Below, one piece after another: positions 8,598 to 35,788 of a stretch of 64,000 bases of DNA. The notes below the pieces were generated by a model. That model was not told the origin of the DNA. It searched no databases and worked only from the letters and a program-made list of their open reading frames with translations. Source of the stretch: Gemmatimonadota bacterium. GTDB taxonomy: Bacteria > Gemmatimonadota > Gemmatimonadetes > Gemmatimonadales > GWC2-71-9. Each line of letters starts with the position of its first letter. Position 1 is the stretch's first letter. The stretch covers positions 1 through 64,000 of the forward strand of contig JBDHKN010000010.1 in the NCBI GenBank assembly GCA_039586365.1, read 5' to 3'. Both the position numbers and the translations under genes were made by a program.

Positions 8598-8648
8598 CGC
8601 TCCCGGACAGCGTCAACTAAGAGCATCCTGCTCGCGTATAAAGGTGAT

Positions 8649-14221: not shown

Positions 14222-16204
14222 ATGAGTAGTCGAGACGGTGTGTCCGCAAGCGTCCCCACCGTCTGCCCTTTCTGCGCATGTGGTTGCGGCCTCTATTTGC
14301 AGAAACTGGACGACGAATTGACAGGGGTGATGCCGAGTGAACATCATCCCGTCTCGGAAGGGAGGTTGTGTGCCCGGGGGTGGGCCGCCCACGAGGCGTC
14401 TCTTTGGGGCCCGCGACTCAGCCGCCCTCTTGTCCGGAATCGCGGCACACTAGAACCAACCACGTGGTCGGCTGCCCTGAGTGCTGCCGCAGAGCGTATC
14501 AGCAAGATCGTTGTAGCCGGCAGGTGGATCGGCGTTCTGGGATCGGCACGTGCTACGAACGAAGAGAATTTCCTTGCCGCAAGGCTTGCCAGAGGCGCTC
14601 TCCAGACGAGCCACGTCGACTCCTGCCTACGTGCTCCCTATCAAAGTCTGCTCGGAGGTTATGCGGAACTCGGCTTAGGCTGCAATTTATCGTCGGCGCT
14701 CGCGGACATAGAACAATGTGATGTGATCCTCCTGCACGAGGGTGATCTGGCGCTCACTCACCCTCAGGCTGCCTACGCCATCATGAAGGCTGTACGAAAC
14801 GGATCCCGGTTGGTCACGATGGGAGCCGCGAAGACACGAATGAGTCGCCTAGCCTGGCTGCACATACCGCTGTTTCCAGGCGACGAGCCGATCTTGGCAG
14901 CCACACTTGCGGCAACAGCAGTGAGTGCCAGCTCGGATAACATGGGTGATGTCGACGGTACCGCACACCGCCGACAAGAGCTCGTTCCAAGCGCCCTGCA
15001 CCAGATACCACTGGCAGAATTAGACAGAGCGATTGATTCGTATGCGGCCGCATGCCGTGCCGCAATCTTGCTCGCCCCGACAGGCGCAGCCGCTGCCCGA
15101 CTCCGTGAGATATCCAGTGGTTTCGCCAAGCTTGCAGCTAGCACAGGACACTCGCAGCGTCCTGGATCTGTGTTCTTGCCGCTACCGCTTCGCGCTAACA
15201 GCCGGGGAGCCCTCGAAATGGGAGCGGTGCCTAACCGCTTACCCGGTCTTTGCGCCCTCGATGACGAAGCAGCGCTCGGGCGCTTAGCCCAGGTCTGGGG
15301 CTGTGAGCCGGCGAGCGAACGCGGACTCGACGTCGAGGCGATGCTCGGTGAGGTCAGGGGACTCATCATAGTTGCTGATGACCCACTGGTGGCTCTGCCT
15401 GCTGCTGACAGTGCCCGCGCGGCATTAGCCGAACTGGACTGCCTGGTTGTGCTCGACGCGTTCGTCACACCGACCGTCGAAGCATCCCACGTTGCTCTGC
15501 CCATAACAAGTCCTGCAGAAACAGATGGCACCCTCACCAGCATGGAAGGTAGAGTGCAGTGGCTGCGAGCTTGTACGCCCCCTCCTGTGGAAGCTCGTCC
15601 AGGATGGTTGGTGCTGAGCGAACTTGGTGCAGCGCTTGGGATGCCCAATACCCACCAATCCGTGGACGACATCCTACGTGACATTCGTCGTGCGGTACCA
15701 AGCTATGAAGAGGCACTCTTGCCGCACGAAGGTCATAGGGTGGGTACTGCAGGAATACTACAGGGAATAACCGGATGTCCACGGGGCCGTGCGTTGGTAT
15801 CTGGAGGACTGCGGAGTTCGAATCCGGAGTTAAGGGGTGTATCGACAGCCGGCTCAGCGGACGGGACTGAGTTCCCCTTCCAACTCGTGCGCGCGGGTTC
15901 ATTCGATTGGGGTGACGACCCTCTAGTCAACTACTCACCAACGCTGCGCCGCGATCACTCGTCGCTGAAAAAGCTGTTTCCGGATGGTCTTGTCGAGATG
16001 AGCAGCCAGGACGCGGAACGGCTGGGGATTCGCCATGGCTGGAGCGTGCGAATCAAATCGATCCACGGCGAGACAGTCGTCCCTGTCAGCCTACGGGAGG
16101 ACCTCGACTCGAAGATCCTACTGGTTCCCTTCGCGTTTCGCGGTCACCTGGAGCCAGTGTTGAATAGGGGAGTGATGCAGCGAGTGAAGGTGGAGCGGAT
16201 TTGA
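14222..16204 (+). CDS. Molybdopterin-oxidoreductase-fold protein, FdhF/NuoG-like, probably non-catalytic
   Basis: N-terminal 4Fe-4S motif CPFCACGC..LCARG, SARATNEE, ETDGTLTSMEGRVQ and a C-terminal molydop-binding-like domain. The Sec/Cys-His site reads DSCLRAPY. Confidence 0.88.
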   Translation: MSSRDGVSASVPTVCPFCACGCGLYLQKLDDELTGVMPSEHHPVSEGRLCARGWAAHEASLWGPRLSRPLVRNRGTLEPTTWSAALSAAAERISKIVVAGRWIGVLGSARATNEENFLAARLARGALQTSHVDSCLRAPYQSLLGGYAELGLGCNLSSALADIEQCDVILLHEGDLALTHPQAAYAIMKAVRNGSRLVTMGAAKTRMSRLAWLHIPLFPGDEPILAATLAATAVSASSDNMGDVDGTAHRRQELVPSALHQIPLAELDRAIDSYAAACRAAILLAPTGAAAARLREISSGFAKLAASTGHSQRPGSVFLPLPLRANSRGALEMGAVPNRLPGLCALDDEAALGRLAQVWGCEPASERGLDVEAMLGEVRGLIIVADDPLVALPAADSARAALAELDCLVVLDAFVTPTVEASHVALPITSPAETDGTLTSMEGRVQWLRACTPPPVEARPGWLVLSELGAALGMPNTHQSVDDILRDIRRAVPSYEEALLPHEGHRVGTAGILQGITGCPRGRALVSGGLRSSNPELRGVSTAGSADGTEFPFQLVRAGSFDWGDDPLVNYSPTLRRDHSSLKKLFPDGLVEMSSQDAERLGIRHGWSVRIKSIHGETVVPVSLREDLDSKILLVPFAFRGHLEPVLNRGVMQRVKVERI

Positions 16205-16214
16205 ACGGGAGCCG

Positions 16215-17282
16215 TTGCGGGAACCCGAGATGACACCTGAGGATGCGGTAACCATAGCCAAAGAAGACCTTCCAGAGTGGCTGACCTGGCTTGGCGAGCG
16301 AGCGCAGTTGATCGCGCCCACTTCAGGTCTCGGCGGAGATGTCCTTTTCACCACCATCTCGTCCCCTCAGGAAGTACTGTGGGAATTCGAGAACTCCCTC
16401 CAGCCGCCCAAACAGTTGCTCCTACCGCAAACAGATCCTCTGGTGAAGATCAGCTACGATGCGGGACGATTCCATCCGGAGCCCGTTTACGACGACCGCC
16501 GACGAATAATCTTCAACGTCCGCAACTGTGACGTGAGCGGGTTCCTCTATCTCCATCGAATGCACTCCCGCGACCTCCCCGACCCTTCCTATCTGCGGCG
16601 GGCCGAGAACACGGCGTTCGTCAGCCTTGCTTGCACCCAGCCGTGCCGGTTGGGCTTCTGCGTCTGCTGTGACGCTGGACCGTTCCTGCGAACCGGATTC
16701 GATCTCCAGCTGACCGCAACGAGTGAGCGAATTTTCGTCGATGTCGGGAGCCGCAAGGGACGTTCGCTCACTGATGGCGTAGCAGATCTGTTCCGTTTGG
16801 CCACACCCGACGAAGTGGCGGAACGGCAGCGACTGGAGGCGAGGGCACGTAGTCTCTTCGGAGAGGAGACCTGCCATTTCGGCTCTGCCATGCGCCGCAT
16901 TTCCACGGGGAGGGTGGCGAAGGAATTGTGGGAGACCATGGGTAATTGGTGCCTCGCATGCGGCGGATGCAATTTCGCCTGCCCTACCTGCTATTGCTTC
17001 AGCGTGAAGGACCGCGCGGTCGACGACTCATGGATGAGGTGCCGCATCTGGGACTCCTGCCAATACGCGGCATTCACCCTGGAGGCCTCCGGTCACAACC
17101 CCCGGACGCAGCAGCGCGATCGCATGTGGCGGCGTTTCTTCCACAAGGTGAGCGCCCAGTACTACCAGCGTGACGGGGACGTAGGTTGTGTGGGATGTGG
17201 TCGGTGCATCCAAGTCTGCATGGGTACCACAGACATGCCGGCGGTAGTGGAGGCGATCCGAAAGGGGGAGTGGCATGGATGA
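16215..17282 (+). CDS. 4Fe-4S protein, sulfhydrogenase beta / AsrA family
   Basis: CLACGGCNFACPTCYCF, RIWDSC, ASGHNPR, RRFFHK and CVGCGRCIQVC. Confidence 0.9.
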   Translation: MREPEMTPEDAVTIAKEDLPEWLTWLGERAQLIAPTSGLGGDVLFTTISSPQEVLWEFENSLQPPKQLLLPQTDPLVKISYDAGRFHPEPVYDDRRRIIFNVRNCDVSGFLYLHRMHSRDLPDPSYLRRAENTAFVSLACTQPCRLGFCVCCDAGPFLRTGFDLQLTATSERIFVDVGSRKGRSLTDGVADLFRLATPDEVAERQRLEARARSLFGEETCHFGSAMRRISTGRVAKELWETMGNWCLACGGCNFACPTCYCFSVKDRAVDDSWMRCRIWDSCQYAAFTLEASGHNPRTQQRDRMWRRFFHKVSAQYYQRDGDVGCVGCGRCIQVCMGTTDMPAVVEAIRKGEWHG

Positions 17283-18096
17283 GTTGTTCCTCCCCAGGGT
17301 AGCAATGATCCTCAGCCAGAAAGACGAGACTCCGGACACTCGCACCTATCAGCTGCAGTTCCGCGACCCCCAGGAACAGGAGCGATTCGCCTTCCAGCCC
17401 GGTCAGTTCTTGGAGCTTTCCGTGTTTGGCATCGGAGAGGCCCCCTTCTGTCTGGCTTCTAGCCCAACGAGAAGGGGATTCGTCGAGGTCACGGTGAGGC
17501 GCACTGGACAGCTTACCGACGCTCTCCATGCTCTGAGCCCCAGGGATGAGATCGGCCTACGTGGTCCATGTGGGAATGGCTTCGACGTGGAAGCTGCCAC
17601 CGGACACGATCTGCTATTCATCGCCGGGGGAATCGGCCTGCCCCCGCTCCGTGGACTCATCTGGAACATCTTGGACGAACGCGACCGATTCGGCCGCGTC
17701 ACGATCCTTTACGGCGCCCGGACCCCGACCGACTTGGTATACAAGGACGAGCTGAAGCTGTGGGAGGAGCGCGACGACGTGGAGTTCTTCGTCACGGTGG
17801 ATCGGGCGGAGTCCGGTTGGGAGGGGAACGTCGGCATGGTGCCGGTTCTCCTGAACATGGTAGAACTGCGTCCTGCCAGTACGCTCACCTACGTCTGCGG
17901 ACCGCCGATCATGATCAAGTTCGTGATCCAAGACCTCCTCATGCGCGGCTTTGCTGAGGAGCGAGTCATATCCACTCTCGAACGAACTATGCAGTGTGGC
18001 GTAGGTAAGTGTAACCACTGCTGCATCGGGCACTTCTACGTCTGCCGGGATGGTCCTGTTTTCACCTATAGACAGATCCGGGAGATGGTGGAATGA
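17275..18096 (+). CDS. FAD/NAD(P)-binding 2Fe-2S protein, sulfhydrogenase gamma / AsrB family
   Basis: PGQF..GIGEAPF, IAGGIGLPPLR, YVCGPPIM and LER.MQCGVGKCNHC..VCRDGPVF. Confidence 0.92.
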   Translation: MDELFLPRVAMILSQKDETPDTRTYQLQFRDPQEQERFAFQPGQFLELSVFGIGEAPFCLASSPTRRGFVEVTVRRTGQLTDALHALSPRDEIGLRGPCGNGFDVEAATGHDLLFIAGGIGLPPLRGLIWNILDERDRFGRVTILYGARTPTDLVYKDELKLWEERDDVEFFVTVDRAESGWEGNVGMVPVLLNMVELRPASTLTYVCGPPIMIKFVIQDLLMRGFAEERVISTLERTMQCGVGKCNHCCIGHFYVCRDGPVFTYRQIREMVE

Positions 18097-18635
18097 CCGC
18101 AATGGAGAGTGGTATGACGCTCCCGGATGCTCTGGCGGTTCGACTCTCAGGAAAGGTGGTCGTTGTGGGCATCGGCAATCCGATGTTCGGCGACGATGCC
18201 GCGGGCTGCCTCGTAGCCCGAAGGCTCACGGGTACTCTAGGTCTTCTCGTCATCGAAGCGGAAGACGTTCCAGAATGCTATCTGGGGGAAATAGTCGCCG
18301 CCAGACCTGACGTGGTCGTGTTCGTGGACGCGGTAGACTTGGGGGAGGCACCCGGATCGACCGCGGTATTACAGCAAGACATGCTGGCAAGCTATGAGGC
18401 GAGTACGCACCGGGTCCCGCTATCCCTCTTGGCGAAACTGATTTCGCGTGAGTGCGGGGCCGACGTTTGGGTGATCGCCATCCAACCACGGCAGGTGAAC
18501 TTGGGGGCGACTCTCAGTACCGAAGTTGCTCAGGCCATCGTCGCTCTATCCGGATTGATCCGACAGTCGGTTCCTGGTTCTGGCACAGCGTTTGGCGTCG
18601 GCACTCCGCTGAAACGGGACACTGGGCCATGTTGA
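18093..18635 (+). CDS. hycI: Hydrogenase maturation endopeptidase, HycI-like
   Basis: VVGIGNPMFGDDAAG, VPE, FVDAVDLG..PG, STHRVPL and IQP. Confidence 0.9.
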   Translation: MTAMESGMTLPDALAVRLSGKVVVVGIGNPMFGDDAAGCLVARRLTGTLGLLVIEAEDVPECYLGEIVAARPDVVVFVDAVDLGEAPGSTAVLQQDMLASYEASTHRVPLSLLAKLISRECGADVWVIAIQPRQVNLGATLSTEVAQAIVALSGLIRQSVPGSGTAFGVGTPLKRDTGPC

Positions 18636-20092
18636 CTACGGCCCTAGTACTCGCTGTGGCCGTGCCCGTCCTAGGCGCGCTGATCGCGGCTGCAGTACCT
18701 GCCCGCCCAGCGCGCTGGAGTGCCATGGCAGCGGCAGCTGTAGCTGCGGCGCTGGCCATACGGGCTGTCGTCACAGCCTTCCCGGGTGTCTATCGGAGCG
18801 GCTTGGGCGGCTTGCCCTGGCTCGGTGCGCAGGTTGGGCACGGTCTCATTGGAGTCCTGATCGACCCGTTGAGCTCCGTCTTGCTCTTGGTTGTCGTGGT
18901 GATCGGACTCCTCACCGTCATCTACTCGTTCCAGTACGTAAGCGAAGCCAATCGCGACCACTCCGTAATGCCGCAGGATCAGCGGCGCTACTACCTCTGG
19001 CTCTTGCTGTTCGTGGCCAGCATGGTCGGTGTGGCCATCTCCCCAAACTTCCTGCAGCTGTTCCTGTTTTGGGAAATGACCACGCTCTGCTCATGGGCGC
19101 TCATCTCGTTCTACCGCAACGAACAGAGCCTGCGTGCCGGATTCAAAGCACTGGTGATGACTCATGTTGGGGGGCTCTTCTTCCTGCTCGCCCTGCTGGT
19201 GCTCTTCACTCAGACTGGTTCCTTCGACTTCGCGGCCCTGGCACGGTTGTCGGAAGGCCCCCGAGCTTCGGTGTTTCTCTGTCTGATGATCGCAACGTGG
19301 GCCAAAGCAGCGCAGGTACCGCTACACACATGGCTGCCCGACGCCATGGAGGCTCCTACGCCAATCAGTGCCTACTTGCACGCGGCTGCAATGGTGAAGG
19401 CCGGTGTGTACCTGATGGCGCGGAGCGTGAGTTCCGGGTGGGCAATGCCCCTGGGAACCGGGTATGCGTTGGGTGCGATGGCGCTGCTCACCATACTGGT
19501 GGCGCTTTCTTGCTACTTCGTACAGGATGACGTGAAGCGTTTGCTGGCCTATTCGACGATCTCACACCTCGGTTATGTGCTGTTGGGCGTCGCCATGGGG
19601 GCGCTCGGTTCCGTAGAAGGGTTCCGTGGGGGAGTCCTGCACATCGTCTGCCATGGATTCTCCAAGGCTTTGCTCTTCTTCTGCGCAGGAGCCGTTGCAT
19701 ACACAACCGGCGTGCGGAGCATCTCAGCGCTCAGGGGTCTAGGGCGCTCGATGCCGCTCACTGCGGTTGCCTTCTTCATTGGGGTACTCGCCGTCACCGG
19801 GATTCCACCGTTCGCTTGCTTCTGGAGCAAGTTCATGCTATTCGCCGGCGCCTTGCAGCTTCCCGGTCCAAGCGGGCCCATCCTGCTGGTAGTGCTACTG
19901 GGCGAGACACTCATTGCCTTCGCGTGGATGCTTTATGTCGCGCAGAGGGTCTTCCTCGGCGCGCCATCACCGGCCGCCGAGAACAGTCAGGATCCACCGC
20001 TCGCCATGAGCATGACATTGGTCCTGTTGATGATCGGATCCGGCATCGCCCCCGTGATCGGGATTCCGCTAGTCGAATTGATCGGAAGGTGA
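18629..20092 (+). CDS. hyfD: Hydrogenase-4 antiporter-like membrane subunit D
   Basis: NRDH..RYY, CSWALISFY, WLPDAMEAPTPISAYLHAA.MVK and KRLLAYST; resembles HyfD throughout. ATG at 18629. Confidence 0.85.
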   Translation: MLTTALVLAVAVPVLGALIAAAVPARPARWSAMAAAAVAAALAIRAVVTAFPGVYRSGLGGLPWLGAQVGHGLIGVLIDPLSSVLLLVVVVIGLLTVIYSFQYVSEANRDHSVMPQDQRRYYLWLLLFVASMVGVAISPNFLQLFLFWEMTTLCSWALISFYRNEQSLRAGFKALVMTHVGGLFFLLALLVLFTQTGSFDFAALARLSEGPRASVFLCLMIATWAKAAQVPLHTWLPDAMEAPTPISAYLHAAAMVKAGVYLMARSVSSGWAMPLGTGYALGAMALLTILVALSCYFVQDDVKRLLAYSTISHLGYVLLGVAMGALGSVEGFRGGVLHIVCHGFSKALLFFCAGAVAYTTGVRSISALRGLGRSMPLTAVAFFIGVLAVTGIPPFACFWSKFMLFAGALQLPGPSGPILLVVLLGETLIAFAWMLYVAQRVFLGAPSPAAENSQDPPLAMSMTLVLLMIGSGIAPVIGIPLVELIGR

Positions 20093-20096
20093 AGCA

Positions 20097-22103
20097 ATGA
20101 GCCACGTCTTCCTGGTCGAGACCGCCTTCACCCTACTGCTGGTCGGGGCAGTTGTCAGCCTCGTGCTGGCACGTCGCAGGAAGCTCTGTGGCTGGACATC
20201 CTTCGCGTTCATCACCGTGTCGGCAATAACCATAGGTGGTGTGGTGGTTGACACATTCCGGACCGGTGGGGAACCCGAAGTCGTACTCCTCCAGCTTCCT
20301 TTGCTTGGTGCAAGCTGGACCATCGTGATTGATCAATTGAGCGCCTTCTTCTTGGCGATTGCCGCGACCATCGGTGTCTTGAGCACCTTGTTTTCCGTGG
20401 ACTACATGACCCACTTCGGAGAGGACACGGTCGCCAAATTCTACCCCGTGCTGCTGGTGTTTTTCGCCAGCATTATTGGCGTGCTGGTCACTTCGGACTT
20501 CCTGTTCTTCCTCGTGTTCTGGGAACTGATGACGCTCACCTCCTTCTTCCTCGTCACGTTTGAACGAGAGAGCGCGACGAGCCAGCGAGCGGGACGGAAG
20601 TACTTCATCATCACGCATGCTGCCACGCTCTGCATGGTGGCAGGTGCGCTTCTCCTGTGGAAAGACTCGGGGTCGTTCCACTTTCCGGCCATGCGGTACG
20701 CACTCGGTACGCTACTGAGTACACGACCTATCATAGGTCATCTTGTGATCTTGCTGCTCTTACTTGGTTTTGCGACCAAGGCGGGAGTTCTCCCGATGGG
20801 TGATTGGCTGCCGGATGCCCATCCGGTCGCACCATCCGGGATGAGTGCCATGCTGTCCGGCGTTCTGGTGAAGCTCGGTATTTACGGACTACTGCGTGTC
20901 TTTTGCGGTTTCGTACCGATATCCCATTCCCTGCAGGCTTGGGGTATCGTGATCGCCCTGGCCGGCACGGCGTCGCTTTTTATCGGGACGCTGACGGCCC
21001 TGATGCAGGCTGACAGTAAACGGCTCATGGCTTTTCACACAATCGGGCAGATCGGCTACATCTGCCTCGGATTAGGTGCAGGGCTGTATTGCCTTCCCAC
21101 TGCTCCCACGCTGGCCGCTCTCGGGTTGATGGGTGCCCTATTCCACGCCGCCAACCATGCCTGTTTCAAAGCCTGTCTCTTTCTGGGTGCTGGCGCGGTA
21201 CTATACCGCACCGGGGAACGGGACATGGACAAGCTCGGCGGACTGGGAGAATCGATGCCGGTAACAGCCGCTTCGTCTACCGTAGCGTCACTGAGCATCG
21301 CGGGAGTACCGCCATTCAATGGCTTTGCTAGCAAATGGTTGATCTTGGTCACATGCATGCTCGTCGGCATGACGTCTCCCTTGTTCCTATTGCTGGGAAT
21401 CGTCGGGCTTTTCATATCCCTCGCGACCCTAGCTTCCTTCCTCAAGGTTCTGGGCGCGGTGTTCCTAGGTCAGCCCGAGGAAGGCTCGGAGGTAAGTGAA
21501 GTACCCTTGACGATGGCAGTTCCGCAGGCCGTCCTGGCGGCACTCTGCGTTCTCCTAGGGATCTTTCCGCAGGCGCCCCTTCGGTTCGCTCACACAGCCC
21601 TCGCCAATCTGTCTTCAGTCGATTTGCCGCCGGTTCATGAGCTCCTTGGAGGTCCCTGGGGACTCACTCTGACCGTGTCCGGCCATACGGTCGGGTTATG
21701 GACACCGTTGGCTGCCGTGGCTGCTCTGGCCCTGTTGGGCGCACTGGCTTACGGAATCCAACGTGCTGGGGCAGCCCGGGTGAGGCAGGTCGATGTGTGG
21801 ACCTGCGGGGAGGAAGAAAGAGCTGCGATCGTGCGCTATCCCGCTAGCAGCTTCTATCTCCCGTTTAAGGGGGCTTTCCACGGCATCTATCCGACGCTAC
21901 GGGTTGGAATCCCGAGTTTCCCACCCTCCCTGCGGAAGGTCCTCGATCTCGATCGCTGGCTGTACCTGCCTGCGGCAAAAGCGGTAGAACGAACCGCGCG
22001 CTATGTGGGTCGCACACACACGGGGATTCCCCAGGTGTACTTGCTTTGGATCGTGGTGGGGGCGCTGGCTGTGATGTTTGCCGGGCTTCTGTTGGTGCGC
22101 TAG
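20097..22103 (+). CDS. hyfB: Hydrogenase-4 antiporter-like membrane subunit B (HyfB/HycC)
   Basis: FWELMTL, WLPDAHPVAPS..SAMLSG, NHACFKACLFLGAG, PPFNGFASKW, and a C-terminal WTCG and HTG..QVYL tail. Confidence 0.85.
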   Translation: MSHVFLVETAFTLLLVGAVVSLVLARRRKLCGWTSFAFITVSAITIGGVVVDTFRTGGEPEVVLLQLPLLGASWTIVIDQLSAFFLAIAATIGVLSTLFSVDYMTHFGEDTVAKFYPVLLVFFASIIGVLVTSDFLFFLVFWELMTLTSFFLVTFERESATSQRAGRKYFIITHAATLCMVAGALLLWKDSGSFHFPAMRYALGTLLSTRPIIGHLVILLLLLGFATKAGVLPMGDWLPDAHPVAPSGMSAMLSGVLVKLGIYGLLRVFCGFVPISHSLQAWGIVIALAGTASLFIGTLTALMQADSKRLMAFHTIGQIGYICLGLGAGLYCLPTAPTLAALGLMGALFHAANHACFKACLFLGAGAVLYRTGERDMDKLGGLGESMPVTAASSTVASLSIAGVPPFNGFASKWLILVTCMLVGMTSPLFLLLGIVGLFISLATLASFLKVLGAVFLGQPEEGSEVSEVPLTMAVPQAVLAALCVLLGIFPQAPLRFAHTALANLSSVDLPPVHELLGGPWGLTLTVSGHTVGLWTPLAAVAALALLGALAYGIQRAGAARVRQVDVWTCGEEERAAIVRYPASSFYLPFKGAFHGIYPTLRVGIPSFPPSLRKVLDLDRWLYLPAAKAVERTARYVGRTHTGIPQVYLLWIVVGALAVMFAGLLLVR

Positions 22104-22112
22104 GGAGGGAGG

Positions 22113-23819
22113 ATGAACACCATGACGGGTACTGCCGCACAGGTAACAGAACTGTTGAGGGAACGAGTTGGTGCCTCTCTTCTGCTCGTGGAGCAGCCAC
22201 AATCGGACACAGTCCGCTGGAAAATCGAGCCGCGGAATGTGCGTGCCGCCGCTGAGGTGCTGACTCAGAACACGGCAGCACGGTACTTGATCACTGTGGG
22301 GATCGATGAGCGTAGCCTGGGCCGAGGCTACGCGATAGTCCATCTCTTTTCGTTGGATGCGGCGCACCTATTCCTAGTTCTGGAGTGTGCGGTCGCAAAG
22401 GAGAATACCCGGATCGATGCCATCACCCCAGTGATCCCGGCGGCGAACTGGGCCGAGCGGGAATTCCGGGACGCGATCGGCATCGATCCCGAAGGACATC
22501 CGGATCTCCGCCGTTTGATGCTGCCAGATGATTGGCCAGATGGGACATTTCCGCTCAGACGGGATTTCCCGTACAACTGTCGCCCTGCGGCGGTAGAAGA
22601 CGCCAAGCCCGTTCTCCTCGATCCGCCTGCAGGATCATCTGTGATCCCCATGGGGCCCTTCTTCCCTTCACTGGAGGAGCCGGCACGCTGGCGGCTGTTC
22701 GTAGAGGGGGAGAAGATCGTGGGCTGCGACTATCGGGGCTTCTACAATCACCGTGCGATCGAGAAGCTCGGAGAGACGGTGCTGACCTACGACAAACTAC
22801 CCTTTGTCGCCGAGCGCATCTGCGGAATCTGCGGGTTCATACATTCCACGTGCTGCTGCCAGGCGCTGGAGAAGGCGGCTGGTATCGAGGTACCACCCCG
22901 CGCACGTTACGTACGCACGATCATGCTGGAACTGGAGCGGATCCACTCTCACCTTCTCTGGCTTGGTATCGCCGCTCACATCATTGGCTTCGAAACGGTA
23001 CTCATGCAGACCTGGCGGATCCGGGAACCGCTCATGTGGCTTACCGAGGAGATCAGCGGGAATCGCAAGACCTACGGAATGAATTGCGTCGGTGGCCTCC
23101 GGCGGGACATCAGCCCGGAATTGGCTCAGAAGACTCGGAACGTACTCGATCATGTCGAACGGGAGGTCACCGCGGTGCGAAAGGCGATTGTCGGTGACAC
23201 CACACTACTGGCCCGGACCAAAGGTGTTGGCGTTCTCACCAAGGAGTGGGCCGAGAAGATCGCGGTAGTTGGTCCACCTGCTCGCGCCTCTGGAGTCGCG
23301 ATCGATGCGCGAGTGGACCACCCCTATGCAGCATATGACGAGATCCCGCCTCGGGTCAGTGTCAGGGAAGACGGTGATGTCTGGTCCAGGGTACTGGTCA
23401 GGATCGACGAACTGGAGGACTCAGTGCGGCTGGTCAGGGCGGCGGCGGCGGCGCTGCCCGACGGAGCGATCAGCACTGAGATCACCGAGGAGATCCCGCC
23501 CGGACGGATTGGGATATCGGTAGTCGAGGCACCCCGGGGAGAAGCCGTCCACTTTGTGATGACGGGTGGTGAAGAGAACCAAGCGTACCGCTGGCGGGTG
23601 CGCGCACCCACCTACCCGAACTTGCAGGCAGTGCCCGTGATGGTGGAGGGGCAGACTATCGCTGACGTCCCTATTACCGTGGGCAGCCTCGATCCCTGCT
23701 TCTCCTGCACTGAGCGGGTAGAAGCTGTGGACGTCCGTAGCACAATCCAACGGGTTTACTCCCACGCAGAGCTCGTCCGAATGTGGCAGGAGAGGAATCT
23801 CTGCGGAGATGACAGATGA
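22113..23819 (+). CDS. hycE: Group 4 [NiFe]-hydrogenase large subunit (NuoC+NuoD-like fusion, HycE/HyfG)
   Basis: Both Ni-binding motifs are intact (ERICGICG and DPCFSCTER), followed by a cleavable C-terminal extension. N-terminal WAERE..GHPDLRRL domain. Confidence 0.95.
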   Translation: MNTMTGTAAQVTELLRERVGASLLLVEQPQSDTVRWKIEPRNVRAAAEVLTQNTAARYLITVGIDERSLGRGYAIVHLFSLDAAHLFLVLECAVAKENTRIDAITPVIPAANWAEREFRDAIGIDPEGHPDLRRLMLPDDWPDGTFPLRRDFPYNCRPAAVEDAKPVLLDPPAGSSVIPMGPFFPSLEEPARWRLFVEGEKIVGCDYRGFYNHRAIEKLGETVLTYDKLPFVAERICGICGFIHSTCCCQALEKAAGIEVPPRARYVRTIMLELERIHSHLLWLGIAAHIIGFETVLMQTWRIREPLMWLTEEISGNRKTYGMNCVGGLRRDISPELAQKTRNVLDHVEREVTAVRKAIVGDTTLLARTKGVGVLTKEWAEKIAVVGPPARASGVAIDARVDHPYAAYDEIPPRVSVREDGDVWSRVLVRIDELEDSVRLVRAAAAALPDGAISTEITEEIPPGRIGISVVEAPRGEAVHFVMTGGEENQAYRWRVRAPTYPNLQAVPVMVEGQTIADVPITVGSLDPCFSCTERVEAVDVRSTIQRVYSHAELVRMWQERNLCGDDR

Positions 23820-24733
23820 GGACGACAGTGCTGGGAATACTCGGGCTCTGCGCAGTTAACGTCCTCGTGGCGTTGTTCCTGTCTCCGCTCTACGAGGGCA
23901 TCCTCAGGAAGTTGCGGGCAGTGATTCACTCCCGCGTGGGACCTCCACTCACCCAGTCCTATCTGGACTTGTTCAAGCTCTTGGGAAAGGAAGACCTTAG
24001 GACCAGTCGGGGACTCCTCTACGCCATCGCGCCGGCACTCACGCTGGGCTCGGTACTGGTCCTCGCAACGCTGGTTCCCATGGGAACGACACCGCCTCTC
24101 GGCTGGGCTGGGGACGTCATAGTGATCATCTATGTGGCGGGGATGAGTGCGGTACTCTTGATCCTCACGGCCTTTGCCTCCCGGAGCCCATATGCGTACG
24201 TGGGCGGATCGCGTGAGATGATGCTCCTCCTTTCGGTCGAACCGGTAATGGCCGTCGCTCTCATCGTCGCAGCGATCAAGGCCGGGACGTTCGCGACGGG
24301 GGACATCTTGGCCTGGCATGAACAGAGCGGACCAACCATCAGCATGATCATCGCCGGTGTGGCCCTCTTCCTCGCTCTGCAGGCTCAAGCGGGAAAACTT
24401 CCCTTCGACATCCCTGAAGCGGATCAGGAACTCATGGGTGGTCCACTTGTGGAGTTGAGCGGGCCGCGGTTGGCACTGCTACGTTGGGCTCTCTGGGCCA
24501 AACAACTGGTCTTCGCGTTCATCCTCGTGGAGATCTTTCTGCCGTGGCCTCGTACGGGACTATTCCCGATAGATCTGGCGCTGGCCCTCGCCAAAGCGCT
24601 TGCGGTCTTGGTTCTTGTGGCTGTAATCGACGTCGTGAATCCTCGGCTGCGGGTAGAGCAGGCCATGGGCTATTACTTGCGAGTGGCGTTCTCCTCCCTA
24701 GCCGCCGTGGCTTTCGCTGTGATCGGGATGTAA
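23816..24733 (+). CDS. hyfC: NuoH-like membrane subunit (HyfC/HycD)
   Basis: RKLRA.IHSRVGPP..Q.YLDLFKLLGKE and KLPFDIPEADQEL..GPL.E.SG. Confidence 0.9.
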   Translation: MRTTVLGILGLCAVNVLVALFLSPLYEGILRKLRAVIHSRVGPPLTQSYLDLFKLLGKEDLRTSRGLLYAIAPALTLGSVLVLATLVPMGTTPPLGWAGDVIVIIYVAGMSAVLLILTAFASRSPYAYVGGSREMMLLLSVEPVMAVALIVAAIKAGTFATGDILAWHEQSGPTISMIIAGVALFLALQAQAGKLPFDIPEADQELMGGPLVELSGPRLALLRWALWAKQLVFAFILVEIFLPWPRTGLFPIDLALALAKALAVLVLVAVIDVVNPRLRVEQAMGYYLRVAFSSLAAVAFAVIGM

Positions 24734-24744
24734 GGAGGTCTCAC

Positions 24745-25197
24745 GTGCTATTGAGCAAGCTCCGCGAAGCGCTCGTTTGCCTGAAGGCGGGCCGTGTGAC
24801 GCTCCCGTACCCATTTGCACCTCACGATCCGGCACCAGGCTTCCGTGGCAAGATCACCGTCGATCCGGATCTCTGCTTTGGCTGCGGTGGGTGTGCGCAT
24901 GTCTGCCCCGCAGGGGTAATCGTCATCAACGACACCGGGCAGCACACCCGCGTGCTCGACTTCCATTGGAGCCGCTGCACCTACTGTAGTCGGTGCGAAG
25001 AGGTTTGTCCTGAAAAGGCAATCCGGTTGACCCAGGAGTTCGAGACTGCAACCGATCGGCCTCAGGACATGCTGATACACTTGGAGGTCTTCATGGGGCC
25101 CTGCCAAAGGTGCGGTAGGTGTTTCCCTCCCCCCACTCCCCTCGAGCGGATGACAGGCACGGGATTTCGCCGCAGCGGGAACGGAGGGCGCAAATGA
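24745..25197 (+). CDS. hycF: NuoI-like 2x[4Fe-4S] subunit (HycF/HyfH)
   Basis: TLPYPF..GFRGK, CFGCGGCAHVCP, CTYCSRCEEVCP and CQRCGR. GTG 24745 follows AAGGAGG. Confidence 0.9.
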   Translation: MLLSKLREALVCLKAGRVTLPYPFAPHDPAPGFRGKITVDPDLCFGCGGCAHVCPAGVIVINDTGQHTRVLDFHWSRCTYCSRCEEVCPEKAIRLTQEFETATDRPQDMLIHLEVFMGPCQRCGRCFPPPTPLERMTGTGFRRSGNGGRK

Positions 25198-25868
25198 ACC
25201 TGACAGATATCCACGCTGATCTCATTCGCACCTTGAGTATGATGCTGGTCATCACGTCCGTGGCCACGGTGGAGACACGACGCCTCCGCCTTGCGGCCGC
25301 GGTGTATTGCGTTCAAGCCCTGTTGATCGTGGCGTTGCTCTTGAGCTTCGCAGCCATCAATCCGGCACTGTATTGGTGGGCGGGGACTGCGTTCATTACC
25401 AAGGTCGTCCTCACTCCCTGGTTCCTATTCCAGTACATCGGAAAGACACAGGAAACCGAATTGCCACCCTGGATCGGCTTCGGACCTTCCATCGTGGTAG
25501 CAGCAATACTCATGATAGGGTTCTTTCGACTGACCCACAGCCAGGTGGATCTGCTGGCTCCCACGGCTCTAGCCCAGGAGGATGTATTCCGCACCAACCT
25601 CGCTGTGGCGTTGACGGTGTTTGTACTGGGACTCTACGCGGTACTCACGCGACGGGATGCTGTGAAGACGGTGATCGGCCTATGCCTGCTGGAGAACGGA
25701 GTGCACCTGAGTCTGGTGAGTCTGGCCCCCGAGCTTCCGGAGACCGCGCTGTTTGGCGTCGCGACTGAAGTCGTGGTCACCGTGTTCCTACTGCTGTACG
25801 TAATCGCCGGAATGTATCAGCAGTTCGGAACCACCGATACCTGGCGGCTGAGCGAACTCCGCGGGTAG
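25194..25868 (+). CDS. hyfE: Hydrogenase-4 membrane subunit E
   Basis: Hydrophobic, with K.VIGLCLLENGVHL and a C-terminal L..LRG. ATGA overlap with the preceding gene. Confidence 0.88.
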   Translation: MNLTDIHADLIRTLSMMLVITSVATVETRRLRLAAAVYCVQALLIVALLLSFAAINPALYWWAGTAFITKVVLTPWFLFQYIGKTQETELPPWIGFGPSIVVAAILMIGFFRLTHSQVDLLAPTALAQEDVFRTNLAVALTVFVLGLYAVLTRRDAVKTVIGLCLLENGVHLSLVSLAPELPETALFGVATEVVVTVFLLLYVIAGMYQQFGTTDTWRLSELRG

Positions 25869-25902
25869 GAGGAAATCTGTCGTGTCTACGGGAGTCTGAG
25901 CG

Positions 25903-27429
25903 ATGAACGAGCAAGCCCTTTTGGTCTCTTCAGGTCTCCCTGCTGCGGCCTTCATAGTGCCCCTATCCGCCGGCGTCATTGTCTTCCTGGGCGGCAGATT
26001 GGGCCGTGGTTTTGGGCAGGGCGTCGCACTCCTGGCTTCGCTGGTAACCGCCGCCATCGGCGTCGCCATGGTGCGAACCGTGGTCCACGGTTCCGTTCTA
26101 ACCACATGGCATAACGAACTCCGGGTCGACGGTCTCTCCGCGCTGCTGGTTCTCGTTATAGGGACGCTTGGCTTCCTCACTACCCTTTACTCAGTACGCT
26201 ACGTGGAGCAGGCTGATTTCCAGCAGCGAGTCGGAGTTGGCAGCGTGGAGCGACGACTGTCGGTCTTCTACGGACTGCTGCTCTGGTTCCTAGCGACCAT
26301 GACCTGGGGGTGCGTGACCAACAACATCATCATGCTCTGGGTTGCCGTGGAGGCCACCACTCTCACTTCAGGACTGTTGGTGGCTTTCTTCTGGGATAGG
26401 CGGGCTCTGGAAGCGGGCTACAAATACCTAATGCTCCTCACCATCGGCATCACCTTCGCTCTCCTGGGTTGCGTGTTGGTATACGCGTCGGCTGCAGCCA
26501 CCGGGCGGTTGGACGGCGGACAGGCGTTGCTGATCAGCGAGGTTAGGAATGTGGCGGGATTGTTCCCCCCCAGAACCGCCGTCATTGCGGTTGTGTTCCT
26601 TATCATCGGCTTCGGCACCAAGGCAGGCATTGCCCCCTTCCACCCCTGGTTGCCGGACGCGCACGCGGAAGCACCTACACCGGTCAGTGTGTTGCTCTCG
26701 GGCGTCATGATCAAGATGGCGCTATACGCCCTGGCGCGTACCGTCGGCTTGTTCTTCCCCGCTTGGCCCCAACTCACCGTCTTTACCGTAGCCCTGGGTG
26801 CATTCACGATGGTTCTCGGAATCTTTCTCGCCCTGGCCCAGGACGACTTGAAGCGGCTGCTCGCCTATTCGTCGGTGAGTCAGATCGGTTACGTGCTGGC
26901 TGGAGTTGGGTTGGGAACATACCTCGGGTGCTTCGGTGGGTTGTTTCACCTATTGAATCACGCTCTCTTCAAGGCTCTCCTGTTCATGTGCGTCGGGGCG
27001 GTGATCTACGCTACCGGCATACGGCGGATCAGCGAATTGGGAGGGCTAGCTAAGAGAATGCCCATCACCGCAGTCAGTTTCCTTGTTGGAGCGCTGGCCA
27101 TATCCGGATTTCCACCGTTCAACGGCTTTTGGAGCAAGCTCACCGTGTACCTGGCTCTCGCCCAATCCGGCCTCTGGTGGGCCGCGGTTATCGCAGTTGT
27201 CACCAGCCTGCTCACCATGGTCGTGTTGGTGCGCCCGGTATGCCGCGTGTTCTGGTCGAATCCAGCTGGAAAATCACCCGGCCTCAGCGAGGTCCGGGAG
27301 GTGCCTGCATATATGTGGATTCCCATGCTGGTATTGGCCTCTGTTTGTCTCTTGCTGGGGCTGCTGCCGAATCTCGCCTATCCGCTCCTGGACCAGGCCG
27401 CCAGCGTGCTGGCAGCGTTAGGGAGGTGA
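25903..27429 (+). CDS. hyfF: Hydrogenase-4 antiporter-like membrane subunit F
   Basis: LWVAVEATTL, ALEAGYKY, GFGTKAG.APFHPWLPDAHAEAPTPVS and DLKRLLAYSS. Confidence 0.87.
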   Translation: MNEQALLVSSGLPAAAFIVPLSAGVIVFLGGRLGRGFGQGVALLASLVTAAIGVAMVRTVVHGSVLTTWHNELRVDGLSALLVLVIGTLGFLTTLYSVRYVEQADFQQRVGVGSVERRLSVFYGLLLWFLATMTWGCVTNNIIMLWVAVEATTLTSGLLVAFFWDRRALEAGYKYLMLLTIGITFALLGCVLVYASAAATGRLDGGQALLISEVRNVAGLFPPRTAVIAVVFLIIGFGTKAGIAPFHPWLPDAHAEAPTPVSVLLSGVMIKMALYALARTVGLFFPAWPQLTVFTVALGAFTMVLGIFLALAQDDLKRLLAYSSVSQIGYVLAGVGLGTYLGCFGGLFHLLNHALFKALLFMCVGAVIYATGIRRISELGGLAKRMPITAVSFLVGALAISGFPPFNGFWSKLTVYLALAQSGLWWAAVIAVVTSLLTMVVLVRPVCRVFWSNPAGKSPGLSEVREVPAYMWIPMLVLASVCLLLGLLPNLAYPLLDQAASVLAALGR

Positions 27430-27437
27430 TTACGGAT

Positions 27438-27953
27438 ATGCTGAAGGAACTCTGCGCTAAGGCTTTCCCCAAGTCGCTCTGGATCTATCATGCGAACACC
27501 GGAGCCTGCAACGGCTGTGACATTGAAGTGATCAACGTACTGACACCCTATTATGATGCGGAGCGTTTCGGTATCCGACTTGTGGGATCACCTCGCCATG
27601 CCGATGTGATCTTGGTAAGTGGTCCTGTCACGCGGCAGGTTGCCCCGGCACTGTACCGCCTCGTTGATGCGGTTCCGGATCCAAAGCTCATCATCGCCGT
27701 GGGCTCCTGCGGTTGCGGTGGTGGACCTTGGTTCGATAGCTACAGCGTCCTGGGAGGGGCTGACCAGTCCATTGCTGTCGACTACTACATACCGGGATGC
27801 CCGCCTCGGCCGGAAGCGATACTCTACGGCATCGCGCTGGCTTTGGGTTTGGTACCAAAGAAGGTCGAGGAGGAGTTTCTGAAGCAAGAGTCCCTAGAGG
27901 AGCTGGCACAGGGCATTCCCCAATACGGGGGGAGCGATGGCGGACAGGACTAA
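27438..27953 (+). CDS. hycG: Group 4 hydrogenase small subunit (NuoB-like, HycG/HyfI)
   Basis: GACNGCDIE, YDAERFGI..SPRHAD, AVGSC and YIPGCPPRP. Confidence 0.92.
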   Translation: MLKELCAKAFPKSLWIYHANTGACNGCDIEVINVLTPYYDAERFGIRLVGSPRHADVILVSGPVTRQVAPALYRLVDAVPDPKLIIAVGSCGCGGGPWFDSYSVLGGADQSIAVDYYIPGCPPRPEAILYGIALALGLVPKKVEEEFLKQESLEELAQGIPQYGGSDGGQD

Positions 27954-28365
27954 GATCCTCGTAGTGGACGATGACCGTGACCTGGTGGACATCCTCACCA
28001 TGGTCTTAACAAGCCACGGCTATGAGACCGTTCAGGCCTACGACGCACCTCAGGGCCTGACGAAGGCGGAGGAGGAACATCCGGACCTCATAGTGTTGGA
28101 CGTCATGATGCCCGAGGGGACCGAGGGATTCCACGTCGTATGGAGTCTGCGAAACCGTCCTGAAGCCTATTTCCAGAACGTCCCTATAATCATGCTCACG
28201 GCAATTCACCAGAAGACACCACTTCGCTTCTATCCGGATTCCGGGGATGGGACCTACGAGGCAGGTGAGTACCTCCCGGTCCAGGGCTTCGTGGACAAAC
28301 CGGTTGAGCCACGGGACCTCGTGAGTGAAGTGGAGCGGGTTCTGGCTATCGACCGGGAACCCTGA
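27937..28365 (+). CDS. Single-domain response regulator
   Basis: ILVVDDD, VLDVMMP, IIMLT and DKPV, with an insertion before KP. Confidence 0.9.
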   Translation: MADRTKILVVDDDRDLVDILTMVLTSHGYETVQAYDAPQGLTKAEEEHPDLIVLDVMMPEGTEGFHVVWSLRNRPEAYFQNVPIIMLTAIHQKTPLRFYPDSGDGTYEAGEYLPVQGFVDKPVEPRDLVSEVERVLAIDREP

Positions 28366-28398
28366 GTTCGAGCCAGGGAGATCGGCGGGAGTCTGCCG

Positions 28399-31134: not shown

Positions 31135-31395
31135 ATGCACGAGCTGAGCATTGCACTAGAAGTTTCTAGAATCGCACAAGACTACGTCGGCCGTGATCAG
31201 CTACGCAAAGTGGTGCAACTGGGGATGGACGTGGGGGAAGAAGCCGGGGTCGAGGTAAGTAGCCTTGAGTTCTGTCTTGAAGCGGTTCTCACCCAGCCAC
31301 CCTTCCATAATGTCAGGGTTGTCATCAGGAGTGTATCGGGCGATGTCTTGCGCCTATCATACTTGGAGACCGAAGATGGCCGTTCGAAGAATTGA
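31135..31395 (+). CDS. hypA: Hydrogenase nickel chaperone HypA, short form without zinc finger
   Basis: MHELSIA start, VGE..GVE..SLEFC and G..LRL..LE; no CxxC pairs. First gene of the hyp operon. Confidence 0.85.
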   Translation: MHELSIALEVSRIAQDYVGRDQLRKVVQLGMDVGEEAGVEVSSLEFCLEAVLTQPPFHNVRVVIRSVSGDVLRLSYLETEDGRSKN

Positions 31396-34368: not shown

Positions 34369-34387
34369 GCCCGGAGTCACAGTAAAC

Positions 34388-35787: not shown

Positions 35788-35788
35788 C

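What the first reader, a model, noticed from the sequence alone, without database searches (positions are those of the whole stretch)
14222..27953. Group 4 membrane hydrogenase apparently wired to NAD(P)H instead of formate
Seen: one tightly coupled operon of an FdhF-like gene, AsrA/HydB-like, AsrB/HydG-like, hycI, hyfD, hyfB, hycE, hyfC, hycF, hyfE, hyfF and hycG. Ni ligands are intact and hypABFCDE lies downstream. Known: Hyc/Hyf (formate hydrogenlyase) normally takes electrons from FdhF through HycB/HyfA, and the beta/gamma pair is the NAD(P)H module of soluble group 3b hydrogenases and Asr. Here there is no HycB/HyfA gene and the Fdh homologue looks inactive. Inference: a complex-I-like ion-translocating H2:NAD(P)+ oxidoreductase (or ion-gradient-driven NAD(P)H-to-H2 enzyme) with a NuoG-like scaffold and a non-NuoEF diaphorase. 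I cannot confirm from the sequence that it is undescribed.
Basis: partly seen in the sequence, partly recalled or inferred. Interest (0 to 1): 0.85.

Follow-up and report, generated by a model that had tools for sequence, protein, structure and literature searches.

The report
Membrane hydrogenase wired to NADH
A conserved bacterial gene cluster encodes a membrane-bound hydrogen enzyme whose usual formate-oxidising partner has lost its catalytic residues and which instead carries a module that likely exchanges electrons with NADH, so it would probably spend the cell's ion gradient to turn NADH into hydrogen; this gene layout has already been reported from genomes, and I found no laboratory test of it.

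Summary
Window 14222-27953 is a 12-gene operon: an FdhF-like gene lacking the Mo-ligand Cys, His and Arg; sulfhydrogenase beta/gamma (AsrAB-like) genes; a protease; and a complete Ni-ligand-bearing group 4 hydrogenase with three antiporter-like subunits. There is no HycB gene. The order is conserved in 26 of 29 close GTDB loci (the other three end at a contig edge) and recurs in Acidobacteriota and Desulfobacterota.

It is not undescribed. Takano et al. 2026 (PMC13582414) report group 4b clusters with Cys-less Fdh plus SHI-beta/gamma, model them, and propose bifurcation. Matheus Carnevali et al. 2019 (PMC6349859) saw a CooF-containing version. I found no biochemistry.

Added here: (1) HycF's rubredoxin-like HycB-contact motif becomes CxxCxxC in 44 of 44 HycB-less loci and stays in 8 of 8 HycB loci; (2) the gamma subunit keeps an Asp pointing to NADH rather than NADPH (53 of 53); (3) the only predicted flavin is FNR-type, which argues against bifurcation; (4) energetics favour ion-gradient-driven NADH-to-H2.

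Best reading (0.55): an ion-coupled NADH:H+ oxidoreductase with a dead Fdh scaffold. No interface could be modelled. New member of a kind known only from genomes; interest 0.5.

The parts
14222..16204 (+). FdhF-like subunit (660 aa), catalytically degenerate; keeps one [4Fe-4S] motif; family-specific invariant Arg52, Trp54, Trp563; likely scaffold
   Evidence: Pfam PF04879/PF00384/PF01568; TIGR01591 285 bits, below cut-off 666; active-site comparison
14636..14641 (+). Pro139-Tyr140, at the positions of the FdhF Mo ligand Sec140 and catalytic His141
16230..17282 (+). SHI-beta/AsrA-like Fe-S subunit (350 aa) with 14 near-invariant Cys besides one more (three to four clusters inferred)
   Evidence: PF17179; only PDB match is P. 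furiosus SHI beta 9nez_B, E 5.8e-37; alignments
17275..18096 (+). SHI-gamma/AsrB-like FAD + [2Fe-2S] pyridine-nucleotide subunit (273 aa)
   Evidence: PF00970/PF00175/PF10418; SHI gamma 9nez_C, E 5.1e-61
17800..17802 (+). Asp176 of the T-V-D motif at the inferred adenosine 2'-position; points to NAD(H)
   Evidence: Asp in 53 of 53 AsrB-like sequences; NADPH-linked SHI gamma has Thr-Arg there, PyrK has Asp
18093..18635 (+). HycI-type hydrogenase maturation protease
   Evidence: PF01750; TIGR00072 over cut-off
18629..20092 (+). HyfD-like antiporter subunit (487 aa); TM5 Glu and axis Lys motifs present
   Evidence: PRK06525 519 bits over cut-off 430; 41% to E. coli HyfD
20097..22103 (+). HyfB/HycC-like antiporter subunit (668 aa)
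   Evidence: best family PRK06521; 33% to E. coli HyfB, charged-axis motifs present
22113..23819 (+). Group 4 [NiFe] large subunit, NuoC-NuoD fused, with intact L1/L2 Ni motifs and cleavable C-terminal tail
   Evidence: trees
23816..24733 (+). HyfC/HycD (NuoH-like) membrane anchor
   Evidence: PF00146; 38% to E. coli HyfC
24745..25197 (+). HycF/HyfH (NuoI-like) 2x[4Fe-4S] subunit, short form (150 aa)
25102..25122 (+). HycF tail C120-Q-R-C123-G-R-C126 (CxxCxxC), replacing the CxxC...CxxC metal site of HycB-bound HycF; candidate new docking site or shared cluster
   Evidence: invariant in 32 of 32 aligned; 44 of 44 HycB-less versus 0 of 8 HycB loci; E. coli site described in PMC9474812
25194..25868 (+). 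HyfE (NuoK-like) membrane subunit
   Evidence: PRK11492 over cut-off
25903..27429 (+). HyfF-like antiporter subunit (508 aa)
   Evidence: best family PRK06458; 42% to E. coli HyfF
27438..27953 (+). HycG/HyfI (NuoB-like) small subunit with four cluster Cys (24, 27, 91, 121)
27937..29910 (+). Single-domain response regulator and membrane histidine kinase directly behind hycG; possible regulators
31135..36853 (+). hypA (86 aa, lacks the zinc-finger half), hypB (likely start 31376), hypF, hypC, hypD, hypE maturation genes

Best explanation
The operon likely encodes one complex-I-like membrane enzyme that exchanges electrons between NADH and H2 and would couple that exchange to ion movement, most plausibly spending the ion gradient to make H2 from NADH. 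Shown from sequence: the gene set, the intact Ni site, the loss of the Fdh active site, the absence of HycB, the altered HycF tail and the conserved linkage. Inferred electron path: NADH, then FAD and [2Fe-2S] in gamma, then the beta clusters, then HycF (entering at the new CxxCxxC tail), then HycG, then NiFe in the large subunit. The Fdh-like protein is inferred to be a cofactor-free scaffold with an off-path cluster, like the C-terminal domain of NuoG. The membrane arm (HyfBCDEF) is inferred to let ions in to drive the uphill step. In this facultatively anaerobic genome it would act as a fermentative NADH valve. At high H2 it could run backwards to supply NADH.
For: Module identity: the best solved matches of beta and gamma are the pyridine-nucleotide arm of P. 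furiosus SHI. Linkage from both sides: Fdh-first, 26 of 29 loci. Large-subunit-first, AsrAB clusters were 8 of 10 hits in 401 Acidobacteriota genomes, 6 of 10 loci (9 genomes) in 401 Desulfobacterota, and 3 of 8 in 401 genomes of the own phylum. Exchange of modules: 46 of 47 AsrAB-without-HycB loci have a degenerate Fdh; the exception, L043, lies beside a large subunit without Ni motifs. All 5 other non-E. coli loci with an intact Fdh carry HycB. HycF tail: CxxCxxC in 44 of 44 HycB-less loci, CxxC...CxxC in 8 of 8 HycB loci plus E. coli HycF and HyfH. In E. coli this tail contacts HycB and FdhF (PMC9474812). HycB-type loci fall at about three places among AsrAB-type ones on the tree. Dead Fdh: the residues at the Sec, His and Arg positions are variable, while the cluster Cys are 46 of 46. 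NADH: Asp176 in 53 of 53. Direction: H2 to NAD+ pays only 1.3-1.8 ions at 1 bar and 0.5-1.0 at 0.01 bar, whereas 2 inflowing ions allow NADH to H2 up to 3-78 bar (textbook potentials, 150 mV assumed).
Against: No interface or cofactor distance was modelled here; the wiring rests on gene linkage and motif covariation among related sequences. Deep nodes of the tree are only SH-aLRT 82-92 from a quick search. Ion translocation is unproven even for E. coli FHL (PMC9474812). The membrane arm varies from one to three antiporter subunits among homologues, so tight coupling is not guaranteed. The genome also has Rnf, PFOR and Hdr-Mvh, which offer other routes from NADH to H2. The published model shows a third Fe-S branch ending at the Fdh-like protein (PMC13582414). 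The invariant Arg52/Trp54/Trp563 near its cluster could mark a functional site rather than a scaffold. Two HycB loci also have a degenerate Fdh (L136, L137) and one has both modules (L139), so the split is not absolute.
Confidence: 0.55

Rival explanations
1. Electron-bifurcating or confurcating three-way enzyme, as proposed by Takano et al. 2026: H+/H2, NAD(P)(H) and a third partner (an unknown substrate, or ferredoxin docking at the cluster of the Fdh-like subunit) are coupled.
For: Their AlphaFold 3 model branches to the large subunit, gamma and the Fdh-like protein (PMC13582414; figure not visible to me). The Fdh-like gene is kept in all 47 AsrAB-without-HycB loci where it could be read, with invariant cluster Cys and Trp54 in the 46 degenerate ones. 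The genome makes reduced ferredoxin through PFOR.
Against: The only flavin site in the operon is the FNR/PyrK-type FAD of gamma. From my own knowledge this type converts two-electron to one-electron transfer and is not a known bifurcating site. No HdrA-, EtfB-, NfnL- or NuoF-like gene is in the operon. A simple unguarded branch would short-circuit ferredoxin to NAD+ (inference).
Confidence: 0.22
2. The Fdh-like subunit is still a Mo/W enzyme with a new ligand set and an unknown substrate, which feeds electrons to both NAD+ and protons.
For: The fold domains are complete. Some pterin-region motifs survive (Asp412, Asn326). 64 of 120 homologues have a Cys one position after the usual ligand.
Against: That Cys is Tyr in the window protein and in 49 of 120 homologues. 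Asp202, Arg581, His585 and Lys679 of FdhF are lost across the family. The active-site positions are variable, not conserved.
Confidence: 0.08
3. A conventional formate hydrogenlyase-2 that borrows FdhF and HycB from elsewhere, with beta/gamma working for another enzyme such as Hdr-Mvh, as Flx does.
For: The membrane and hydrogenase genes are HyfB-I homologues. The genome has a PFL-like gene and ten Fer4_11 matches. A second copy of the first four genes follows an hdrA-mvhDGA cluster on contig C14. The genome is 86% complete.
Against: No protein with an intact FdhF Cys-His/Arg motif was found among the nine tblastn matches in the genome. HycF lacks the tail that contacts HycB. The C14 copy ends in a second, HycI-type protease at the contig end and differs in GC (0.64-0.69 versus 0.57-0.59), as expected for the start of another copy of this operon. 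The linkage to hyf genes is conserved across phyla.
Confidence: 0.07
4. The wiring is as proposed but the membrane arm is only an anchor or proton channel, so the enzyme equilibrates NADH and H2 without energy coupling, like a membrane-tethered group 3b hydrogenase.
For: Eight homologous loci carry a single antiporter subunit. FHL-2 lacking hyfD-F keeps some activity (under 30%; PMC13645896).
Against: The window and its close relatives keep three antiporter subunits with charged-axis residues plus HyfE. A soluble enzyme would do this job with fewer genes (inference).
Confidence: 0.08

Closest known systems
Group 4b clusters with Cys-less Fdh and SHI-beta/gamma homologues (Takano et al. 2026, PMC13582414)
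   Same: Same gene content: large and small subunit, HyfE, HyfC, antiporters, Fdh without the Mo-ligand Cys/Sec, SHI-beta and SHI-gamma. The large subunit printed in their Table 1 shares long identical runs with the window protein, compared by eye. UxxU-type Desulfobacterota loci with this layout are 52-53% identical and fall in the same tree clade, against 41% for E. coli HycE.
   Different: They propose NADP(H) and bifurcation with an unknown substrate; I find an NADH-type Asp and no known bifurcating flavin. In the text I read they do not mention the HycF tail change or the loss of HycB. Their table has no Gemmatimonadota row and none of six of my Acidobacteriota records that I looked up. 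The window enzyme is all-Cys.
Enigmatic group 4 hydrogenase of Saganbacteria RX5A (Matheus Carnevali et al. 2019, PMC6349859)
   Same: Group 4 hydrogenase with antiporters, an unclassifiable molybdopterin oxidoreductase, asrA and asrB, proposed as one oxidoreductase module.
   Different: It includes a cooF-like gene and two Mrp antiporters; the window has no CooF/HycB and three antiporter-like subunits. L139 looks like that CooF-containing form.
Formate hydrogenlyase-2 (E. coli Hyf, Pectobacterium FHL-2) and FHL-1 (Hyc)
   Same: Five-subunit membrane arm HyfBCDEF, fused NuoCD large subunit, HyfH/HyfI homologues, HycI protease.
   Different: No active FdhF, no HyfA/HycB, no HycH/HyfJ, different HycF tail, separate large-subunit clade.
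Soluble hydrogenase I of Pyrococcus furiosus (group 3b) and Salmonella AsrAB
   Same: Beta and gamma are homologous, with cluster and FAD motifs kept.
   Different: Attached to a membrane group 4 core instead of alpha/delta or AsrC; below all family cut-offs; Asp instead of Thr-Arg at the inferred 2'-phosphate site.
Respiratory complex I
   Same: Three antiporters, NuoH/K/B/CD/I homologues, a cofactor-free Fdh-like subunit and a pyridine-nucleotide flavoprotein at the tip.
   Different: NiFe site instead of a quinone site; diaphorase is beta/gamma, not NuoEF; the Fdh-like subunit lacks the N-terminal Fe-S domains of NuoG. The genome has a separate nuo cluster on C48.

Membership tests
Group 4 [NiFe] hydrogenase | Large subunit with L1 RxCxxC and L2 DPCxxCxxR Ni motifs | tested here: met
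   RICGIC at 235-240 and DPCFSCTER at 527-535
Group 4 [NiFe] hydrogenase | NuoB/NuoI/NuoH homologues plus antiporter-like membrane subunits, protease and hyp genes | tested here: met
Group 4 [NiFe] hydrogenase | H2 turnover coupled to ion translocation | not testable with these tools
   needs biochemistry
HydDB subgroup 4b | Large-subunit placement with classified 4b sequences | tested here: inconclusive
   HydDB itself was not available. The protein groups with UxxU Desulfobacterota loci (a motif the paper reports only in 4b) and apart from E. coli 4a; SH-aLRT 92 for that clade, quick tree. By-eye match to a 4b sequence in the paper's table.
Takano-type 4b cluster (Cys-less Fdh + SHI beta/gamma) | Fdh homologue lacking the Mo-ligand Cys/Sec | tested here: met
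   Pro139
Takano-type 4b cluster (Cys-less Fdh + SHI beta/gamma) | SHI-beta and SHI-gamma homologues in the cluster | tested here: met
   9nez_B and 9nez_C are the best solved matches
Takano-type 4b cluster (Cys-less Fdh + SHI beta/gamma) | Predicted assembly with a three-branched Fe-S network | not testable with these tools
Formate hydrogenlyase (FHL-1/FHL-2) | Active Mo-bis-MGD FdhF with Sec/Cys, His and Arg | tested here: not met
   none found among nine matches in the 86% complete genome
Formate hydrogenlyase (FHL-1/FHL-2) | HycB/HyfA ferredoxin-like linker | tested here: not met
   absent from the window and from all 29 close loci
Formate hydrogenlyase (FHL-1/FHL-2) | HycF/HyfH cysteine quartet CxxC...CPxC | tested here: not met
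   CxxCxxC and an early end instead
Group 3b sulfhydrogenase | Soluble alpha/delta core with beta/gamma | tested here: not met
   no group 3 large subunit in the window; the only other one found in the genome is Mvh-type on C14
Anaerobic sulfite reductase (AsrABC) | Siroheme subunit AsrC in the operon | tested here: not met
   no such ORF between asrB and hycI or elsewhere in the operon
Known flavin-based bifurcating families (Etf, Nfn, Bfu, HdrA) | A bifurcating flavin subunit within the complex | tested here: not met
   only an FNR/PyrK-type flavoprotein is encoded; family list from PMC13689815 passages
Ehr (hydrogenase-related complexes without Ni site) | Loss of the Ni-binding cysteines | tested here: not met
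   all four are present

The most novel reading that the evidence does not exclude
A single membrane complex that performs reverse electron transport from NADH directly to protons: a complex I analogue with a NiFe site, an AsrAB-type diaphorase in place of NuoEF, and a new intersubunit Fe-S centre built on the HycF CxxCxxC tail that replaces the whole HycB wire. It would be a one-enzyme answer to how fermenters and syntrophs release H2 from NADH above the equilibrium pressure, and some 'FHL' annotations in peat and sediment genomes would be wrong.
Probability: 0.35. Interest if true: 0.8.

Novelty: new member of a known kind. Interest (0 to 1): 0.5.

Why it matters
The characterised group 4 hydrogenases named in the papers I read take electrons from formate, CO or ferredoxin. 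An NADH-linked, ion-coupled member would add a new electron donor to the complex I superfamily. It would also show a second, independent way of attaching an NADH module to a complex-I-like core. The clusters occur in peat, soil and sediment Acidobacteriota, Gemmatimonadota and Desulfobacterota, and are liable to be annotated as formate hydrogenlyase. The peat genome SbA1 was described as having fdhF plus a hyf operon. Yet the only large subunit of this type found in that genome sits beside the dead Fdh and AsrAB. That would change inferred H2 and formate fluxes in wetlands. The layout itself is already published, which caps the surprise; the mechanism is open and testable.

Tried and rejected
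Complex prediction (beta with HycF) was not available, and structure prediction of the Fdh-like protein was not accepted on three tries. No interface or pocket was modelled, and this is no evidence either way.

No RNA holder was listed for the operon. Three look-ups in earlier findings returned nothing. The SHI structure paper (Xiao et al. 2025) is not held, so SHI cluster counts were not checked.

Rejected lead: I recalled the NADH-dependent fumarate reductase FrdCDE of Aquificota, suggested by the Atlas hit, as the same three-gene module. The Aquifex table labels FrdD nox and FrdE dmsB2, so it is at most an analogue.

Rejected: Cys20 of the Fdh-like protein as the fourth ligand for the HycF tail, because it is Thr, Val or Ser in distant members. 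No beta-subunit Cys unique to these clusters was found either, so the fourth ligand is unidentified.

The profile search with the HycF alignment gave 46 representatives at E<=1e-30 but no context and was not used further. PMC13689815 concerns a different enzyme.

Six of my GTDB records were not in the Takano table, so the subgroup could not be read off directly. The careful tree did not finish; both trees are quick searches.


Full report
OBSERVATION. Window 14222-27953 holds twelve co-oriented, translationally coupled genes. In order they encode an FdhF-like protein (660 aa), an SHI-beta/AsrA-like Fe-S protein, an SHI-gamma/AsrB-like FAD/[2Fe-2S] protein, a HycI-type protease, HyfD, HyfB, a fused NuoCD-type large subunit, HyfC, a short HycF (start GTG 24745), HyfE, HyfF and HycG. 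A response regulator and kinase follow, then hypA, B, F, C, D, E. The large subunit has both Ni motifs and a cleavable tail; its best solved match is E. coli HycE. Only beta and HycF carry ferredoxin motifs in the whole window, so there is no HycB. GC of the operon (0.60) equals that of the genome. The organism is probably a Gemmatimonadota member, judged from the nearest named homologues.

THE FDH HOMOLOGUE. Against FdhF it has Pro for Sec140, Tyr for His141 and Pro for Arg333. Among 120 listed homologues (of 248 found at E<=1e-30) the ligand position is never Cys among the six commonest residues, and the next position is Cys in 64 and Tyr in 49. Residues invariant in 6 intact Fdh sequences but lost in most or all of 35 degenerate ones include Asp202, Met297, Arg333, Arg581, His585 and Lys679 (their role in pterin binding is recalled, not from a call). 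The four cluster cysteines are kept in 46 of 46, together with family-specific Arg52 (45), Trp54 (46) and Trp563 (45). This reads as a folded, cofactor-free protein under selection around its cluster.

CONSERVED LINKAGE. The Fdh-first scan returned 80 GTDB loci. Of these, 29 are at least 35% identical: 26 continue asrA-asrB-(hycI)-hyfD onward, 3 end at a contig edge, and none has HycB. L038, just under that cut-off, has the same order. The remaining more distant hits are mostly ordinary Fdh or nitrate-reductase-like genes without these neighbours; three are classical Fdh-HycB-hyf clusters.

To avoid selecting on the Fdh, I searched with the large subunit in four samples of 401 genomes. Own phylum: 8 hits, 3 with this cluster. 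Acidobacteriota: 10 hits, 8 AsrAB-type, 1 HycB-type, 1 without a module. Desulfobacterota: 10 loci in 9 genomes, 6 AsrAB-type, 3 HycB-type, 1 truncated. Chloroflexota: 2 hits, 1 HycB-type and 1 with both modules. Seventeen metagenome loci gave the same picture. The soluble module is constant while the membrane arm has one, two or three antiporters.

MODULE SWAP AND HYCF TAIL. After dropping duplicates, short sub-loci and the frameshifted L035, 46 of 47 loci with AsrAB and no HycB have a degenerate Fdh. The exception, L043, lies next to a large subunit without Ni motifs. Of 8 HycB loci, 5 have an intact Fdh and 3 a degenerate one, one of them also carrying AsrAB. HycF ends in CxxCxxC in 44 of 44 HycB-less loci where it is readable, and in CxxC...CxxC in 8 of 8 HycB loci and in E. 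coli HycF and HyfH.

In the E. coli structure this tail binds a single metal through four cysteines, contacts HycB and faces FdhF through Arg122 (PMC9474812, passages). The window keeps the first CxxC and that Arg (Arg125) and has a third Cys right after it. HycB-type loci appear at about three positions among AsrAB-type ones on the large-subunit tree, so the pattern is probably not one inheritance, but the deep nodes are weak (SH-aLRT 82-92, quick tree of 32 selected rows) and relatives are not independent. I infer that the tail is the new docking site and may hold a shared cluster; the fourth ligand was not identified.

COENZYME. Gamma has T-V-D176, with Asp in 53 of 53 AsrB-like sequences from my loci, including a few that lie beside other enzymes. 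SHI gamma, which is NADPH-linked, has Thr-Arg there, and the PyrK subunit of dihydroorotate dehydrogenase B has Asp. A review table lists D239T in cytochrome b5 reductase and S223D in FNR as coenzyme-shifting changes (PMC5817062, passages). That these are the equivalent position is recalled and was not aligned here. NADH is therefore more likely than NADPH.

GENOME CONTEXT. The 86% complete genome has a nuo cluster, Rnf, several PFOR-family genes, two heme-copper oxidases, a PFL-like gene and an hdrA-mvhDGA cluster, which fits a facultative anaerobe. None of nine FdhF-like matches has the intact Cys-His/Arg motif. A second copy of the first four genes (48-74% identical) ends contig C14, with higher GC than its flank and closest similarity to Thermoanaerobaculia-like loci. 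Its continuation was not found, so it is either a truncated second operon or misbinned DNA.

MECHANISM. Inferred path: NADH, gamma FAD and [2Fe-2S], beta clusters, HycF, HycG, NiFe. With textbook potentials and 150 mV, H2 to NAD+ yields 18-26 kJ/mol at 1 bar, enough for 1.3-1.8 ions, and 0.5-1.0 ion at 0.01 bar. One inflowing ion lets NADH make H2 up to 0.01-0.2 bar and two up to 3-78 bar. With three antiporter subunits, the gradient-driven, H2-evolving direction is the more plausible if coupling is tight. Against this, coupling is unproven even for FHL, and no structure could be predicted here. I give 0.55 to this reading, 0.22 to three-way bifurcation, and 0.07-0.08 each to a new Mo enzyme, a borrowed-Fdh FHL and an uncoupled enzyme.

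PRIOR WORK. Takano et al. 2026 (PMC13582414; I read passages, parts 2-3 of 6 of the text, the Discussion, the supplementary legends and some table rows; figures not visible) state that about half of the Fdh sequences in their group 4b clusters lack the Mo-ligand Cys/Sec and co-occur with SHI-gamma and SHI-beta homologues. They model the complex and propose bifurcation among H2, NADP(H) and an unknown substrate. Whether their modelled cluster has HycB I could not see; comparable Sec-bearing Desulfobacterota loci in my sample do not (L129, L131, L132).

Matheus Carnevali et al. 2019 (PMC6349859; passages and Supplementary Note 5 passages) describe a version with cooF. Hausmann et al. (bioRxiv 10.1101/197269; passages) call the SbA1 cluster a formate hydrogenlyase. 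That genome's only matching Ni-type large subunit lies in the dead-Fdh/AsrAB operon, so this is probably the same locus. PMC13645896, PMC8165549, PMC10052474 and PMC13689815 were seen as passages only. Five library searches aimed at this system showed no biochemical study; the library lacks most subscription journals, so this is not proof of absence.

VERDICT. Real, conserved and widespread; a member of a kind described from genomes in 2019 and 2026 but apparently untested. It is not an FHL, because three defining features failed. The HycF tail switch, the NADH-type Asp and the energetic argument are additions that make the open mechanism directly testable. Novelty: new member of a known kind. 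Interest 0.5; novel case 0.35 probability, 0.8 if true.

Noticed in passing
L001:11094-15375 (own genome, C14:15093-19374): Second copy of fdh-like, beta, gamma and hycI at the contig end, right after a fused hdrA, mvhD, response regulator, mvhG, mvhA and protease; GC jumps from about 0.58 to 0.68 and it is closer to Acidobacteriota loci than to the window copy. Either a transferred second operon or misbinned DNA.
   Followed up: partly
window 31135-31395: HypA is only 86 aa and has no zinc-finger CxxC pairs; it matches only positions 1-69 of the 112-position Pfam model.
   Followed up: no
L123-L127, L133-L135: Eight loci keep the dead Fdh + beta + gamma module but have a single antiporter subunit and no hyfE, an FHL-1-sized membrane arm; a natural series for testing ion stoichiometry.
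   Followed up: partly
L129:9144-10781: Large subunit with an in-frame TGA giving a UxxC motif in a dead-Fdh/AsrAB cluster, sister to UxxU loci; the text of PMC13582414 that I read reports UXXC only in group 4e.
   Followed up: no
L107, L110, L111 (hycG gene): The small subunit reading frame has an internal stop within the matched region, possibly a selenocysteine; the codon was not checked.
   Followed up: no
L043:1802-13011: An intact Fdh flanked by asrB and asrA, divergent from an Ehr-type cluster without Ni motifs: a candidate formate:NAD+ enzyme using the same beta/gamma module, perhaps like the ancestral state.
   Followed up: partly
L136, L137: Degenerate Fdh with HycB and a divergent group 4 large subunit (RICACC motif), with no membrane-subunit or AsrAB match in the fetched stretch; electron donor unclear.
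   Followed up: no
window 50610-63813: Cluster with an MMPL-like transporter, NAD-dependent epimerase, two B12/radical-SAM-like proteins, an FkbH-like protein, a methyltransferase and a carbamoyltransferase; looks like a secondary-metabolite or envelope-modification locus (labels from reading the ORFs, not from a family search).
   Followed up: no
window 553-13801: Dense two-component region (several kinases and response regulators), a DASS-like transporter fused to a receiver domain, and universal-stress and BON-domain genes upstream of the operon (labels mostly from reading the ORFs).
   Followed up: no
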